A program made the translations under genes and the position numbers. The notes below the pieces were generated by a model that saw nothing but the letters and a program-made list of their open reading frames with translations, was not told the DNA's origin and did no database searches. DNA of 41,450 nucleotides from Bacillota bacterium (GTDB lineage Bacteria > Bacillota > Clostridia > Lachnospirales > Bianqueaceae). The stretch covers positions 1 to 41,450 of the forward strand of contig JAFVHC010000024.1 in NCBI GenBank assembly GCA_017474705.1, in the 5' to 3' direction. Positions 4,209 to 8,977 of this stretch are shown piece after piece (the stretch's first letter is position 1; every line of letters begins with the position of its first letter).

Positions 4209-4237
4209 ATTATAGCATGGAGGATGCCTCCTGTCAA
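4209..4237 (-). promoter_or_regulatory. perfect consensus SigA promoter for the scfA operon
   Basis: Minus strand: TTGACA (4237-4232), a 17-nt spacer, then TATAAT (4214-4209). The spacer contains the palindrome GGAGG-CAT-CCTCC (4219-4231). Confidence 0.75.
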
Positions 4238-4249
4238 CCGGGAAGGTCT

Positions 4250-4278
4250 TTGCAAAGTCCCGGCCAATATGATATCAT
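4250..4278 (+). promoter_or_regulatory. candidate promoter for the MATE gene
   Basis: TTGCAA (4250-4255), 17-nt spacer, TATCAT (4273-4278). It is divergent from the scfA promoter. Confidence 0.45.
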
Positions 4279-4300
4279 ATGCGTAAAGGAGGAATGTGTT

Positions 4301-5646
4301 TTGGCTTCGATCAACAATTTTACCGAAGGAAAGATCGCTGGTCCTCTGGTCCGCTTTACGATCCCTTTACTGCTGGCTTTCTGCCTGCAGTCCTTATACG
4401 GCGCCGTGGACCTGATGGTCGTCGGCCAGTTCGGTGTGCCAGCTGATGTTTCAGCGGTCTCCACCGGCAGCCAGATGATGCAGATGGTCCTGGTCGTGGT
4501 GGCCGGACTGTCCATGGGTGCGACCATCCTGCTGGGGCAGGCAGTCGGTGCAGGGAGATCCAAAGAATCCGGCAGTCTGATCGGCACCAGCATCACCTTC
4601 TTCATCGGTCTGGCACTGATCCTCACCGCACTCATGCTGCTGGTCACCGTTCCTTTCACCCGGCTCATGCAGGCTCCGAAAGAAGCTTTTGATAAGACCG
4701 TCACATACGTAAGGATCTGTTCCGTGGGCACGTTGTTCATCACTGCCTATAACGTGATCGGCTCCATCTTCCGCGGCATCGGAGATTCCCGCACGCCGCT
4801 TTTTACCGTTGCAGTTGCTACAGTGGTCAACATTATCGGCGATCTGGTCCTGGTCGCGGTCTTCCATATGGCGGCCGCCGGTGCGGCCATAGCGACCGTT
4901 GCCGCCCAGGGTGTCAGTGTCGTTTTGAGTCTGCTGCTGGTCCGCAGACAAGGCCTGCCTTTCTCCTTTGACAAGACCGATGTCCGGCTGGACAAGCGCC
5001 ATGCCCTTGACATCGTGAAACTGGGCATGCCCATCGCCCTGCAGGACGGATTGGTCTCCATCTCGTTCCTGGTCATCGCGGCCATCGTCAACAGCCTGGG
5101 CGTCATGGTCTCCGCCGGCGTCGGCGTGGCCGAGCGCGTCTGCGGGTTCATCATGCTCGTGCCCTCAGCCTTTTCCCAGGCACTTTCCACCTTTGTCGCC
5201 CAAAATACCGGTGCGAACAAACCGCAGCGGGCGATGCGCGGCACGATCATCGCCATGGCATCTCCTTCGCCATCGATGCTGTGATTGCTTACTTCAGTTT
5301 CTTCCATGGGGACCTGCTGGCCTCCATCTTCACTTCGGACAAGCAGCTGATCGCCTATGCCTGGGAATACCTGAAGGCCTACGCGATCGATACCCTGCTG
5401 GTCTCCTTCATGTTCTGCTTCATAGGTTACTTTACCGGTGTCGGACGTACGACCTTCTGCATGATCCAGGGGCTGATCTGCGCGTTCCTGGTGCGTGTTC
5501 CGGTCTCCTGGGTGATGAGCCGGCGCGTGCCGGTCAGCCTCTTCCACATCGGTCTTGCGACACCCAGTTCTTCCCTGGCCGGGATCCTGCTGTGTGTTGG
5601 ATTCCTGCTGTTCATACGAAACAAAGAGCAAAATAAGGGGGCGTGA
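4301..5646 (+). pseudogene. MATE family efflux transporter, interrupted by a 1-nt frameshift near 5257
   Basis: Track ORFs 4217..5284 and 5281..5646 are the two halves of one ~449-aa MATE protein. The likely start is TTG 4301, 8 nt after AAGGAGG. Inserting one G after ATG(5255-5257) restores ...QNTGANKPQRAMRGTIIAM-GISFAIDAVIAYFSFFHGDLLASIF... Confidence 0.8.
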
Positions 5647-6828: not shown

Positions 6829-7389
6829 TTATTCACCCAGTTTTAATGCCGCCTCATTCAATTTTTCGCTGCATCGCAGCAAGACCTCCGTATAATATAC
6901 GTCTTCTTCCTCCGTCAGATCCTTGTCCAACGCGTCTATTTTTCGTTCCTCTTCCTCGAGCTTGACCACAAACTCCAGATATTCTGCGATCAATTCAGCA
7001 TTCGTCGGATCTTCACTATAAACAGTAATGAACTCGCAGTACTCATCGATGAAAGCCTCATACGCATCGATCGCTTCTTTGACGTCGGGGCGGATGCCGG
7101 AGGCCTGAGATTCCTCGGCAGATTCTTCTTCTGCCGGCTCTTCTTCCTCAGGTTCTTCTGTTGGTTCCTTCTCAGGCTTTTCAGAGGAGGACTCCTCTTT
7201 CGAAGATTCTGCCTTTGAAAACTCTTCTTTTGACGTTTCTTCCCTTATCATTTGCTCCACGCGCGACGACGATCCTTCTCTGCGCGCCTCCCGTTCTTTA
7301 TCCTTCTTGTTTTTGCCGAAGAACCCCAGAACGGCCACTACAATGATCAGGACTATGATGATCGTAAATACACGTTTCAAGAATTTCAT
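6829..7389 (-). CDS. N-terminally membrane-anchored protein with a highly acidic Ser/Glu-rich linker and a helical C-terminal domain (function unknown)
   Basis: 186 aa. TM helix is VFTIIIVLIIVVAVLGFF. The low-complexity stretch is EESSSEKPEKEPTEEPEEEEPAEEESAEE. The C-terminal part is AIDAYEAFIDEYCEFITVY... The ATG overlaps the merR stop (TAATG). Confidence 0.7.
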   Translation of the reverse strand: MKFLKRVFTIIIVLIIVVAVLGFFGKNKKDKEREARREGSSSRVEQMIREETSKEEFSKAESSKEESSSEKPEKEPTEEPEEEEPAEEESAEESQASGIRPDVKEAIDAYEAFIDEYCEFITVYSEDPTNAELIAEYLEFVVKLEEEERKIDALDKDLTEEEDVYYTEVLLRCSEKLNEAALKLGE

Positions 7390-7727
7390 TATTCTTCCTC
7401 CCTATCGATAGATTCCAATGTTTCTTCCAACAATGCCAGGCGCGCCTCGATCCTCTGCATCTCCTTGTAGAGGAGTTGTTTCTGCTCCAGCAAAAGTACC
7501 CTCTCCTGTCCCCGATCATCCAGGATCGCCAGGATCTGAGGTTTATGCAGACCGATCTGCCGTAGAAGCGCGATCTTTTCCAGTTTTCTGAGCCCTTCCT
7601 CATCATAGAGTTTATAGGCGCCTTCATACTCCGTCGCCACCGCTGGTACGATCTGCTTATACTGGAACAGATGCTTACGGCTCAGACCTGTGCGTCTGCA
7701 CACTTCTCCCACACGATACAGTTTCAT
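7389..7727 (-). CDS. MerR-family transcriptional regulator (112 aa)
   Basis: ORF 7389..8042, trimmed to MKLYRVGEVCRRTGLSRKHLFQY (an N-terminal HTH typical of MerR). AAGGAGG lies 9 nt upstream of the ATG at 7727. A C-terminal coiled-coil is present. Confidence 0.8.
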   Translation of the reverse strand: MKLYRVGEVCRRTGLSRKHLFQYKQIVPAVATEYEGAYKLYDEEGLRKLEKIALLRQIGLHKPQILAILDDRGQERVLLLEQKQLLYKEMQRIEARLALLEETLESIDREEE

Positions 7728-7795: not shown

Positions 7796-7825
7796 ATGAT
7801 AGAACCGTTCCACAGGAACGGTCAA
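7796..7825 (-). promoter_or_regulatory. MerR-type promoter with a dyad operator inside the spacer
   Basis: Minus strand: TTGACC (7825-7820), an 18-nt spacer (19 nt if -35 is read as CTTGAC), then TATCAT (7801-7796). The spacer holds the palindrome ACCGTTCC-N3-GGAACGGT (7804-7822). Confidence 0.6.
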
Positions 7826-7892
7826 GCCCTCTCACGAACGAATTTAGTTCATAAGAGAACTTGTAATTTTCGCGCATCAGTCCGCGCCGTGC

Positions 7893-7953
7893 GCAAAAGA
7901 ACATCGATGGCAGCTCCTTGCTTGCAAGAGGGATGGCATCGATGTTCTTTTGC
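7893..7953. other. 61-nt near-perfect hairpin / inverted repeat
   Basis: Arms are GCAAAAGAACATCGATGGCA (7893-7912) and TGGCATCGATGTTCTTTTGC (7934-7953), pairing at 19/20. The 21-nt loop has its own CTTGC/GCAAG stem. It lies between the tandem array and the merR promoter. Confidence 0.7.
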
Positions 7954-8055
7954 ATAGGGCGCGACAAACCGTAATGAGGACGAAGTGCGCAGCACGAAAG
8001 TCCGAATGCTGTTTGCGTGTGGCGGATTCCAGATTGAACCAAGTCATTGTCGTCT

Positions 8056-8432
8056 AATTACGTTCTATTCAGCGACATTAATAGAATAAGACGTAGTCAT
8101 TTAGCCATGATTACGTTCTAAAAAGAGAGATTGAAAATCAGAACGTAATCAGACTGCCCTAATTACGTTCAAAATAAAATACTCAAAAAACAGAACGTAA
8201 TCGGCCCTCCTCGACTACGTTCCAAAAATGCAATACTGAAAAACAGAACGTAATCGCCTTCCTCGACTACGTTCCAAAAACGAAATACTCAAAAACAGAA
8301 CGTAATTCGGCGTGTCCGACTACGTTCTGAAACAAGATATTGGAAAAATAGAACGTAATCGCCTTTTCCGACTACGTTCTGAAATGAGATATTAGAAGAA
8401 CAGAACGTAATCGACCTTCCCGACTACGTTCT
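8056..8432 (-). repeat. tandem array of 7 units (period 52/53 bp); each is a ~12-bp stem-loop plus an AT-rich linker. Candidate structured ncRNA, terminator array or iteron cluster.
   Basis: Plus-strand unit starts are 8088, 8140, 8192, 8245, 8297, 8350 and 8402. Consensus: AGAACGTAATCG-(CCTTCCT)-CGACTACGTTCY-CAAAAAnnAATACTnAAAAAC. Five units are well formed; 8140 and 8088 are degenerate; an orphan half-site lies at 8056-8066. Confidence 0.9.
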
Positions 8433-8473
8433 ACACATAATAACAATACAAAACAAGCGCGTCGATCTGCGCA

Positions 8474-8977
8474 TCACCTGTGTATATACATCCTGGTCAT
8501 GTCCGGCTCGCCGTCACCCTGCACCATGCAAAGGAATTCCCAGCCATACTTTTCATAAAACCCGACATGATCCGTCACCAGATAGAGCGGTGAGATCCCT
8601 TTGGACCGCATATCCTCGACGACCATATCCAGCAGCTTACCGGCGATGCCTCTCCCCCGATATTCCTCTTCTGTATAGACCGCGCAGACGTTCGGTGTCA
8701 GGTCTTTGCGGTCGTGGAAATCATTCTCGATCACGCCCATGCCGCCGATGATCTTGTCCCCGTCGAGGCACAGGTACCAACCGTACTCCGTCTCTTGGCT
8801 CAGATACGCTTCCATGCATTCCAGATAGGCCGCGCGTGGTACACCCCACTTCTCATGGAACCAGTCCGCCGCCGTATCCTTCAGTTCCGGTCGCTCCCGC
8901 AGGGTCACATATCGGTAGGGGTCTTTCTTGTTCTTTTCTTTGTATGATCCAAACACTCCCAAAGCCAGGTTCATCAA
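8474..8977 (-). CDS. GNAT-family N-acetyltransferase
   Basis: 167 aa. The acetyl-CoA motif is EEYRGRGIAGKLLDMV. RBS is GGGAGGAAA. Confidence 0.8.
   Translation of the reverse strand: MMNLALGVFGSYKEKNKKDPYRYVTLRERPELKDTAADWFHEKWGVPRAAYLECMEAYLSQETEYGWYLCLDGDKIIGGMGVIENDFHDRKDLTPNVCAVYTEEEYRGRGIAGKLLDMVVEDMRSKGISPLYLVTDHVGFYEKYGWEFLCMVQGDGEPDMTRMYIHR

What the first reader, a model, noticed from the sequence alone, without database searches (positions are those of the whole stretch)
8056..8432. Seven-unit 52/53-bp tandem stem-loop array with strand-asymmetric pairing, SD-like loops and U-runs
Seen directly: unit starts at 8088, 8140, 8192, 8245, 8297, 8350 and 8402 are spaced 52, 52, 53, 52, 53, 52 bp, about five helical turns. 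Each unit has a 12-bp inverted repeat (AGAACGTAATCG / CGACTACGTTCY) around a 5-8-nt pyrimidine loop, then a ~21-nt AT-rich linker with its own conserved core (AATACT..AAAAAC). In the five best units, the one non-Watson-Crick position is an A.C mismatch if the plus strand is the RNA. It is a G.U wobble if the minus strand is the RNA (AGAACGUAGUCG...CGAUUACGUUCU, a perfect 12 bp). Flanking genes are also on the minus strand. On that strand the loops read GGAAGGU, GAAAAGG, ACACG, AGGAAGG and AGGAGGGC, which are Shine-Dalgarno/GGA-like. Every hairpin is followed by GUUUUU or AUUUUU. Three readings are possible. (a) A multi-hairpin decoy RNA presenting SD/GGA loops, analogous in architecture to CsrB/RsmZ sponges; no such sponge is established in Firmicutes. 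(b) A stack of six intrinsic terminators insulating merR from the GNAT gene. (c) DNA iterons phased on one helix face for a cooperative binder. I know of no described element matching this.
Basis: partly seen in the sequence, partly recalled or inferred. Interest (0 to 1): 0.85.

Follow-up and report, generated by a model that had tools for sequence, protein, structure and literature searches.

The report
Variable tandem palindrome array, rumen Clostridiales
The 52-bp hairpin array is real, but it is one copy-number-variable member of a scattered family of tandem palindromic intergenic repeats in uncultured rumen Clostridiales; here it most likely acts as a stack of transcription terminators, not as a protein-sponge RNA.

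Summary
The array at 8056-8433 is real: seven 52/53-bp hairpin units plus one orphan half-site. It is not unique. Copy number varies among near-identical strains and a sister species (about 3, 6, 7 or 10 units, and none in the short stretch held for one allele). A relative with 68%-identical MerR has 14 units at the same place that keep the period and one arm but have lost the hairpin. Pattern scans found arrays of the same build at 11 further unrelated intergenic loci, all in rumen Clostridiales assemblies, six of them in one MAG. The family shares the inverted 8-mers AGAACGTA/TACGTTCT and a fixed geometry (23-24 and 28-29 bp, period 52-53). Loops, linkers, U-runs, SD-like loops and the G.U/A.C asymmetry are array-specific. 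Where the arms vary, the changes are mostly uncompensated, so sequence rather than pairing is conserved. No conserved neighbouring gene, transposase, phage or plasmid link was found. In this window the minus-strand hairpins (-15 to -17 kcal/mol), four with U-runs, are the only terminator-like signals between the GNAT gene and merR. Best reading: a REP/BIME-like repeat family that here serves as redundant terminators. The CsrB-like sponge reading is not supported. A diverged Clostridiales-1 RNA lies next to the array, probably because both are post-gene elements.

The parts
8056..8433 (.). Whole tandem array: one orphan half-site plus seven hairpin units, period 52/53 bp
   Evidence: Arm 8-mers alternate < > with start-to-start gaps of 28-29 and 23-24 bp.
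8056..8067 (.). Orphan half-site TAATTACGTTCT with no partner arm at hairpin distance
8088..8119 (+). Unit 1, AAGACGTAGTCA..TGATTACGTTCT. Polarity is opposite to units 3-7: G.U on the plus strand.
   Evidence: plus -11.9, minus -8.2 kcal/mol.
8140..8171 (-). Unit 2 hairpin. Position 9 is A-T; the mismatch is displaced by one position.
   Evidence: minus -16.0 kcal/mol; terminator-like, tail GATTTTCA.
8192..8224 (-). Unit 3 hairpin, minus-strand loop AGGAGGGC, tail GTTTTTTG
   Evidence: -16.0 kcal/mol.
8245..8276 (-). Unit 4 hairpin, minus-strand loop AGGAAGG, tail GTTTTTCA
   Evidence: -15.3 kcal/mol.
8297..8329 (-). Unit 5 hairpin, minus-strand loop ACACG, tail GTTTTTGA
   Evidence: -15.2 kcal/mol.
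8350..8381 (-). Unit 6 hairpin, minus-strand loop GAAAAGG, tail ATTTTTCC
   Evidence: -16.3 kcal/mol.
8402..8433 (-). Unit 7 hairpin, the first one met by a GNAT transcript. Minus-strand loop GGAAGGT, tail GTTCTTCT (no U-run).
   Evidence: -16.9 kcal/mol.
8474..8974 (-). GNAT acetyltransferase gene upstream of the array (minus-strand sense)
8449..8472 (-). Weak 4-bp GCGC hairpin plus TTGTTTTG just after the GNAT stop codon. Its stem is not conserved in L033.
   Evidence: read directly from the sequence.
7885..8024 (+). Diverged Clostridiales-1 RNA (RF01699) lacking the last stem. It is a neighbour of the array, not part of it.
   Evidence: 33.1 bits (gathering score 48), E 2e-5. The orthologous allele in L010 scores 54.5 bits.
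7796..7825 (-). merR promoter: TTGACC, 18 nt, TATCAT. The spacer holds the perfect dyad ACCGTTCC-N3-GGAACGGT (7804-7822), a probable MerR operator.
   Evidence: Conserved in L011 and L014.
7389..7727 (-). MerR-family regulator gene downstream of the array (minus-strand sense)

Best explanation
The array is a locus-specific, copy-number-variable expansion of a dispersed family of about 52-bp tandem palindromic intergenic repeats found in uncultured rumen/gut Clostridiales.

Each unit is an inverted repeat of a conserved 8-10-mer (AGAACGTA(A/G)T ... ATTACGTTCT) at fixed spacing. Loops and linkers drift and are homogenised within each array.

Shown: family membership, dispersal, copy-number variation, fixed geometry, sequence-level rather than structure-level conservation of the arms, and location mostly at the 3' ends of genes.

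Inferred:
(i) Arrays grow and shrink by slippage or unequal recombination.
(ii) The arms are kept by sequence-specific recognition by an unknown trans-acting factor, as REP/BIME elements are.
(iii) At this locus, a GNAT transcript on the minus strand meets six 12-13-bp hairpins, four followed by U5-6. The local effect would be redundant intrinsic termination and 3'-end protection, insulating the autoregulated merR operon from read-through.
For: Copy number: 7 units here, 6 in L001, about 3 in L008 and 10 in L033 (MerR 86% identical); L010 shows none in the 414 bp held upstream of merR.

Same site in L014 (MerR 68% identical): 14 units of period 52 that keep GATTACGTTCT plus a T-run but have lost the other arm.

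Dispersal: 11 further unrelated loci. Six are in MAG RUI017, two in RUG14172 and three more in JAEEGL01.

Geometry in every array: 23-24 and 28-29 bp, period 51-53.

The exact arm 8-mers occur almost only inside arrays across the window and the 23 loci scanned, about 215 kb; the six isolated copies are about what chance predicts.

Arm statistics over 44 hairpins: GTA/TAC invariant in 44 of 44. At variable positions there are 6 C.C, 5 A.G and 1 G.G against 1 compensated pair. Position 10 is A-T 24, A.C 9, G.T 7, so there is no strand bias.

Flanking genes are unrelated housekeeping genes, about half of them convergent pairs, with no transposase.

Local terminator reading: 4 sites on the minus strand; 7 terminator-like sites in the region on both strands against 1.5 expected. 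Hairpins are -15 to -17 kcal/mol on minus against -10 to -13 on plus. merR has its own conserved promoter and dyad.
Against: Terminator-like units are almost confined to this array. The same scan gives 1 site in L025 and none in L032, L018 or L014, so termination is not the family's conserved property.

The GNAT-proximal unit has no U-run.

Strong conservation of the arms while loops and linkers diverge is not explained by termination or by neutral drift. It points to an unidentified sequence-specific factor.

No expression data were available, so the transcribed strand is unknown.

Dispersal within this organism's own genome could not be checked. There is only one array in the 41-kb window, and the species is absent from the genome collection scanned.
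Confidence: 0.55

Rival explanations
1. DNA-level binding platform. The alternating AGAACGTA/TACGTTCT half-sites at fixed 23-24/28-29-bp spacing are cooperative binding sites for an unknown sequence-specific DNA-binding protein: a nucleoid-associated protein, a regulator, or a HUH or other recombinase. Hairpin potential would be a by-product of dyad symmetry.
For: The arms are conserved in sequence and their variation is mostly uncompensated. The geometry is invariant across 12 loci even though loops and linkers differ. L014 keeps one arm and the 52-bp period without any hairpin. The 8-mers are found almost only in multi-copy arrays.
Against: No candidate protein was found: flanking genes differ at every locus, and no transposase, partition or replication gene was seen. 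Copy number is very labile. The adjacent MerR has a different operator, ACCGTTCC-N3-GGAACGGT, in its own promoter, and only the CGTTCC hexamer is shared with some arms.
Confidence: 0.2
2. Neutral or selfish minisatellite with no host function. A palindromic progenitor was amplified by slippage, and terminator-like features here are accidental.
For: Large copy-number differences between near-identical strains. Arrays with mismatched or missing arms still expanded: L014, L017, L029, L030. There is no conserved context.
Against: It does not explain why the arm 8-mers stay about 90-100% conserved across loci and genomes while loops and linkers diverge to near-randomness. It also does not explain why spacing never drifts by more than 1 bp.
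Confidence: 0.15
3. Plus-strand non-coding RNA. Transcription of the adjacent Clostridiales-1 RNA, which here lacks its terminal stem, runs into the array. The hairpins would then display CU-rich (CCUCCU/CCUUCC) anti-Shine-Dalgarno-like loops, like the C-rich seed loops of Firmicute sRNAs (RsaE/RoxS, LhrC; from memory).
For: The Clostridiales-1 hit is on the plus strand directly 5' of the array. The same arrangement is seen at two other loci, L022/L031 and L025/L043-46. The CU-rich-loop sub-family is shared by the window and L022.
Against: Most Clostridiales-1 copies in this clade have no array, and 9 of 12 array loci have no Clostridiales-1. No plus-strand promoter was found. Plus-strand hairpins carry A.C mismatches and are weaker. 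CU-rich loops are absent from most arrays. There is no complementarity between Clostridiales-1 and the array beyond shuffles.
Confidence: 0.06
4. A minus-strand multi-hairpin decoy RNA presents SD/GGA loops and titrates CsrA or 30S subunits, as CsrB/RsmZ do.
For: GGA is present in 4 of 7 minus-strand loops and G.U pairs make perfect minus-strand stems. A weak promoter-like site lies just upstream, at 8465-8437 on the minus strand.
Against: Each hairpin with a U-run would terminate the RNA after one unit. The loops are not conserved in the family or in L014. The -35 of the promoter-like site is not conserved in L033. Copy number ranges from about 3 to 10. The G.U/A.C asymmetry is not general.
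Confidence: 0.03

Closest known systems
REP elements and BIME arrays of Enterobacteria and Pseudomonas (REPINs; RAYT-associated)
   Same: Short imperfect palindromes with sequence-conserved stems. They occur in alternating orientation with linkers of fixed length and can be iterated in tandem. They lie downstream of genes and between convergent genes. They vary between strains. They are credited with termination, mRNA stabilisation and protein binding. General properties are from PMC3733652; BIME architecture is from memory.
   Different: No unpaired GTAG or CGTC tag. No singletons or simple dimers beyond the few isolated 8-mers that chance predicts. Far fewer loci. No RAYT seen nearby. The host is Clostridiales, and PMC3733652 does not mention Firmicutes or Clostridia.
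Pneumococcal BOX elements (boxA-boxB(n)-boxC) and staphylococcal STAR repeats (from memory)
   Same: Firmicute intergenic repeats. A 40-50-bp module is iterated a variable number of times, forms hairpins, and is dispersed over many loci.
   Different: No conserved terminal modules flank the arrays here. The unit sequences are unrelated. The strict alternation of one inverted 8-10-mer is not a BOX or STAR feature.
Intrinsic terminators and hairpin clusters as termination units (PMC8355165)
   Same: Stable hairpins with U-runs downstream of a stop codon, several in a row.
   Different: Seven homologous copies at an exact 52-bp period. The same unit recurs at unrelated loci, mostly without U-runs.
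CsrB/RsmZ protein-sponge RNAs
   Same: Many short hairpins, some with GGA in the loop.
   Different: No evidence of a discrete transcript. The GGA loops are not conserved. Each unit would self-terminate. The element is dispersed and its copy number is labile.
Plasmid centromere and iteron arrays, for example F sopC (12 x 43 bp, each with a short inverted repeat; from memory)
   Same: A tandem array in which each unit carries a short conserved inverted repeat at fixed phase.
   Different: Chromosomal, at many loci, with no partition or replication genes nearby. Nothing similar was found in the plasmid or phage collections.
Type III toxin-antitoxin RNA arrays (ToxI, CptI; PMC3401426 appeared in the search list but was not read)
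   Same: Tandem repeats of tens of nucleotides with strictly kept unit length, found in gut Clostridiales.
   Different: No toxin gene is adjacent at any locus. The linker-loop pseudoknot idea failed its control.

Membership tests
REP/BIME | 20-40-nt imperfect palindrome with a sequence-conserved stem | tested here: met
   31-32-nt hairpins. The arms AGAACGTA/TACGTTCT are conserved across 12 loci.
REP/BIME | Unpaired GTAG (or CGTC) tag at one end of the palindrome | tested here: not met
   GTAG occurs only inside the stem of some arms (ACGTAGTCG). Most arms read GTAA. There is no conserved unpaired tag (criterion from PMC3733652).
REP/BIME | High copy number, with singletons and dimers dispersed through the genome | tested here: inconclusive
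   Six loci in one MAG. In about 215 kb of the window and 23 loci the 8-mers occur in arrays, plus six isolated copies, about the number chance predicts. No complete genome was available.
REP/BIME | Associated RAYT (IS200/IS605-like tyrosine transposase) in the genome | not testable with these tools
   None among the flanking genes examined. Whole genomes could not be searched.
REP/BIME | Location downstream of genes, between co-directional or convergent genes | tested here: met
   window.
BOX element | Modular boxA-(boxB)n-boxC with conserved end modules | tested here: not met
   Arrays start and end directly with an arm. The flanks are unrelated between loci.
Intrinsic terminator | Stable G+C-containing hairpin immediately followed by a U-run on the transcribed strand | tested here: met
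   Four of seven units on the minus strand, -15 to -17 kcal/mol. Not met by most other arrays. Transcription itself was not tested.
CsrB/RsmZ-type sponge | Conserved GGA motifs in hairpin loops of a discrete, separately transcribed RNA | tested here: not met
   GGA is in 4 of 7 loops here, but the loops are unrelated in other arrays and in L014. No conserved promoter.
CRISPR array | Identical repeats separated by unique spacers, with cas genes or a leader | tested here: not met
   The 'spacers' (linkers) are homologous within an array. No cas genes among the neighbours.
Type III antitoxin RNA array | Tandem pseudoknot units directly upstream of a ToxN/AbiQ-like toxin gene | tested here: not met
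   No conserved downstream gene. Linker-loop pairing is no better than non-cognate controls: -5.0 versus -5.3 kcal/mol.
Any Rfam family (4227 models) | Score at or above the gathering threshold over the array | tested here: not met
   No hit at gathering score in the window. Over the array there are only chance-level hits, E 0.4-5.
Clostridiales-1 RNA (RF01699), for the neighbouring element at 7885-8024 | Four-stem structure scoring at least 48 bits | tested here: inconclusive
   The window copy scores 33.1 bits and lacks the last stem. The orthologous allele L010 scores 54.5 bits. The long stem shows paired changes between alleles.

The most novel reading that the evidence does not exclude
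The arm 8-mers stay invariant and the 23-24/28-29-bp geometry is strictly kept across unrelated loci, while everything else drifts. This could mean the arrays are cooperative recognition platforms for an as yet unknown sequence-specific factor of rumen Clostridiales: a DNA- or RNA-binding protein, or a HUH-type recombinase that also seeds new arrays. That would be a Gram-positive counterpart of the REP-RAYT/BIME system with its own architecture, possibly linked functionally to the Clostridiales-1 3'-UTR element.
Probability: 0.15. Interest if true: 0.65.

Novelty: new variant of a known kind. Interest (0 to 1): 0.38.

Why it matters
If confirmed, this would be a previously undescribed family of tandem palindromic intergenic repeats in uncultured rumen Clostridiales. 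I found no REP/BIME-like system reported for that group. Three consequences follow. The repeats break short-read assemblies: 13 of the 19 contigs carrying this MerR protein are under 2 kb, and several of those examined end inside the array. They vary between strains and could serve as strain markers. They may shape transcription at gene ends. The sequence-conserved arms with fixed spacing point to an unidentified trans-acting factor worth looking for.

Tried and rejected
1. Rfam over the window and the array: no family. The RAGATH-21 and rliA hits are chance level.

2. H-type pseudoknot between linker and following loop. The idea came from GAATC/GATTC and from two covarying sub-units in L032. 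It is rejected: cognate duplex energies (-5.0 kcal/mol) are no better than non-cognate ones (-5.3).

3. tracrRNA-like complementarity between Clostridiales-1 and the array: none beyond shuffles.

4. Obligatory Clostridiales-1 plus array composite. It looked promising at first, with three loci having the array 3' of Clostridiales-1. It was weakened when rplL, rplA and rplJ loci of relatives showed Clostridiales-1 directly after stop codons without arrays.

5. Array polarity from the linker consensus: ambiguous. The consensus linker is itself palindromic (GTTTTGA..TCAAAAC).

6. Link to the GNAT gene: rejected. Homologues that are 80-86% identical sit in other operons without arrays.

7. Link to MerR. 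L011-L013 (MerR 71% identical) have no array. The MerR operator-like dyad shares only CGTTCC with some arms.

8. Phage, plasmid or viral origin: no hits.

9. CRISPR, integron attC, TIGR arrays, iterons and type III antitoxin arrays: considered and rejected on architecture and context.

10. The flank alignment of Clostridiales-1 in the Weinberg 2010 supplement: the stored part holds no array motifs beyond a single 8-mer, and its first entries are low-complexity hits.

11. One search used wrong coordinates for two loci, so its pair counts should be ignored. Only the window, L033, L008 and L010 rows are informative.

Full report
**1. Observation.**
Region 8056-8433 holds a genuine tandem array. 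Tandem Repeats Finder gives period 52, 6.2 copies, 78% matches and score 297. Repeat finding recovers the 52/53-bp spacing and the 12-nt inverted arms. The 10-mer GAACGTARTC (up to 1 mismatch) occurs 17 times in the window, 14 of them in the array, against 3.2 expected by chance.

Four details needed correction:
- Only four of seven units have a real U-run.
- Unit 1 has the opposite polarity.
- There is an extra orphan half-site at 8056-8067.
- The five 'best' units are copies of one another, so the asymmetry is one or two events, not five.

Both strands fold far better than shuffles: minus -148 kcal/mol, z -9.9; plus -107, z -8.9. Any array of palindromes would do so.

**2. Context.**
The surroundings are chromosomal, with about 56% G+C. 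On the minus strand a GNAT acetyltransferase gene (8474-8974) precedes the array. A MerR-family gene (7389-7727), followed by DUF6591 and GDSL genes, comes after it.

merR has its own promoter, TTGACC-18-TATCAT. Its spacer holds a perfect dyad, ACCGTTCC-N3-GGAACGGT (7804-7822). The promoter and dyad are conserved in relatives that lack the array.

Between merR and the array, on the plus strand, lies a sub-threshold match to the Clostridiales-1 RNA (RF01699, 33.1 bits against a gathering score of 48, E 2e-5). The orthologous allele in L010 scores 54.5 bits.

Sample names (XIEF21, STEW19, WILK20) and protein names such as 'MAG: Clostridiales bacterium' place the organism among uncultured ruminant-gut Clostridiales.

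**3. Same locus in relatives.**
Contigs encoding the identical MerR protein show the array with 7 units, with 6 (L001, exactly one 52-nt unit missing) and with about 3 (L008). One allele (L010) has no array in the stretch held. It has a second Clostridiales-1 copy instead.

A sister species with 86%-identical MerR (L033) has 10 units of the same type.

A more distant relative with 68%-identical MerR (L014) has 14 units of period 52 at the same place. They keep GATTACGTTCT plus GTTTTTTGAG and a G-rich stretch. The other arm is lost, so there is no hairpin.

L011-L013 (71% identical) have no GNAT gene, no Clostridiales-1 and no array.

So the array is a variable-number tandem repeat. Neither hairpin number nor even the hairpin itself is conserved.

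**4. A dispersed family.**
Two pattern scans of public genomes and metagenomes found arrays of the same build at 11 further, unrelated intergenic loci. All are in rumen Clostridiales assemblies:
- six in MAG RUI017 (L016, L017, L018, L022, L025, L027);
- two in RUG14172 (L029, L030);
- three more in JAEEGL01 (L032, L034, L035). L031 and L033 from that assembly are orthologues of L022 and of the window locus.

The other eight genome hits look like chance or unrelated repeats.

In every array the start-to-start distance from AGAACGTA to TACGTTCT is 23-24 bp, and from TACGTTCT to the next AGAACGTA it is 28-29 bp. The period is 51-53 bp, although loop and linker sequences differ between arrays. 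The exact 8-mers occur almost only inside arrays across the window and the 23 loci scanned, about 215 kb; the six isolated copies are about what chance predicts.

A family consensus can be read from the units: TACGTTCT-GTTTTGAGCGAATCAAACAAT-AGAACGTA-ATGAGCCAGATTCAT. The linker is itself palindromic. That makes the unit look like a bidirectional terminator, and it makes array polarity ambiguous.

Flanking genes are unrelated: transporters, glycoside hydrolases, rplJ-rplL, regulators and tRNAs. About half the arrays lie between convergent genes. No transposase or other recurrent partner was found. Nothing similar exists in the viral, phage or plasmid collections.

**5. Structure or sequence?**
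I compared 44 hairpins from 12 arrays.
- The inner GTA/TAC is invariant.
- AGAAC/GTTCT is about 85-93% conserved.
- Where arms vary, the change is usually uncompensated: 6 C.C, 5 A.G and 1 G.G against one compensated G-C.
The family therefore shows no strand preference.

Arrays with mismatched arms (L017, L029, L030) or a missing arm (L014) still expanded. Stem extensions beyond 9 bp are array-specific: ATCG/CGAY here, ATGA/TCAT in L025, TGAG/CTCA in L034. This is weak covariation at best.

The purine-rich (minus) or CU-rich (plus) loops are shared only with part of the L022 array. U-runs are nearly confined to this array. The same scan finds 1 site in L025 and none in L032, L018 or L014.

What is conserved, then, is a sequence motif and its spacing. 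It is not an RNA helix, its loops or a terminator tail.

**6. Clostridiales-1.**
Three independent loci have the array directly 3' of one or more Clostridiales-1 copies: the window with L033, L022 with L031, and L025 with L043-46. I tested whether this is a composite element.

In relatives, Clostridiales-1 (68-92 bits) lies immediately after the stop codons of rplL, rplA and rplJ. Most of those copies have no array. Nine of the 12 array loci have no Clostridiales-1. There is no complementarity between the two beyond shuffles.

The adjacency is best explained by both being post-gene elements. A functional link is not excluded.

**7. Mechanism.**
I commit to the following reading. The array is an expansion of a REP/BIME-like repeat family. 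The arms are probably kept by an unknown sequence-specific factor (inferred). Copy number changes by slippage or unequal recombination (inferred from exact 52-nt indels).

At this locus the minus-strand RNA coming from the GNAT gene meets hairpins of -15 to -17 kcal/mol, four with U5-6. The only other post-stop signal is a 4-bp GCGC hairpin whose stem is not conserved in L033. In L014 the first family-type hairpin, 16 nt after the stop, carries U7. Redundant termination, 3'-end protection and insulation of the autoregulated merR operon is therefore the most likely local effect.

Confidence is about 0.85 that this is a member of a dispersed, variable repeat family. It is about 0.45 that termination is its effect here, and 0.55 for the joint statement as worded.

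**8. Rivals.**
- DNA-level protein-binding platform (0.2). This is the best fit to sequence-only conservation and fixed spacing, but there is no candidate protein.
- Function-less minisatellite (0.15). This does not explain the conserved arms.
- Plus-strand RNA continuing from Clostridiales-1 with CU-rich loops (0.06).

**9. Comparison with known systems.**
The array works like REP/BIME arrays and somewhat like pneumococcal BOX elements. It fails their membership tests: no GTAG or CGTC tag, no boxA or boxC modules, and no RAYT seen. PMC3733652, which catalogues REP families, does not mention Firmicutes or Clostridia. Hairpin clusters as termination units are described in PMC8355165. The array is not a CRISPR array, an integron, a type III antitoxin array or an iteron set.

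**10. Verdict.**
The feature is real. The sponge interpretation is not supported, the terminator reading is plausible locally, and the element belongs to an apparently undescribed but conceptually familiar class. Novelty: new variant of a known kind. Interest: 0.38. The residual puzzle is what recognises AGAACGTA at a fixed 52-bp rhythm. That is the part worth following up.

Noticed in passing
window 7885-8024 (+); L010 84-252; L025 1126-1444; L022 6750-7209; L044-L057: Clostridiales-1 RNA (RF01699, function unknown) is frequent in this clade. It starts immediately after the stop codons of rplL, rplA, rplJ and a sugar-isomerase-like gene, often as tandem or partial tandem copies, some with their own terminator. 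It behaves like a 3'-UTR or post-gene repeat rather than a free-standing sRNA gene. The window copy is antisense to all neighbouring genes and lacks the last stem.
   Followed up: partly
window 7796-7825 (dyad 7804-7822): The merR promoter TTGACC-18-TATCAT has a perfect dyad, ACCGTTCC-N3-GGAACGGT, in its spacer. It is conserved in L011 and L014 and is probably the operator of this rare MerR family (only 8 homologues at E below 1e-10). A second imperfect dyad, CTCTTATGAAC..GTTCGTGAGAG, lies just upstream at about 7828-7858.
   Followed up: partly
window 8474-8974 (-): The GNAT acetyltransferase has more than 8000 homologues at 80-86% identity in many Firmicutes (Agathobacter, Lachnospiraceae MAGs). 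They sit in quite different operons, and some are fused to a Mor domain. This is unusually high conservation across genera and suggests horizontal spread or strong constraint.
   Followed up: partly
L014 1952-2685: A 14-copy, 52-bp array that has lost one arm. Each unit reads AGGGGGT, 8 nt, then TTG followed by a 10-codon frame. That looks like tiny SD-plus-ORF modules but is probably coincidence, since the period is not a multiple of 3.
   Followed up: no
L010 1-250: One allele of the window species carries two tandem Clostridiales-1 copies and no array in the 414 bp held upstream of merR. The long stem differs from the window copy by several paired (compensatory) changes.
   Followed up: partly
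window 4217-5646 (+): The MatE efflux gene appears split into two overlapping frames (4217-5284 and 5281-5646). This is either a frameshifted pseudogene or an assembly error.
   Followed up: no
window 7118-7159: A 15-bp tandem repeat (2.8 copies) inside the Glu/Ser-rich linker of the DUF6591 membrane protein gene. Relatives have products of 185-190 aa for this gene, so it may be length-polymorphic.
   Followed up: no
L032 10415-10790: This array has a higher-order 104/105-bp period made of two alternating sub-units with different loops and linkers. TRF also reports a 105-bp period for the window array.
   Followed up: partly
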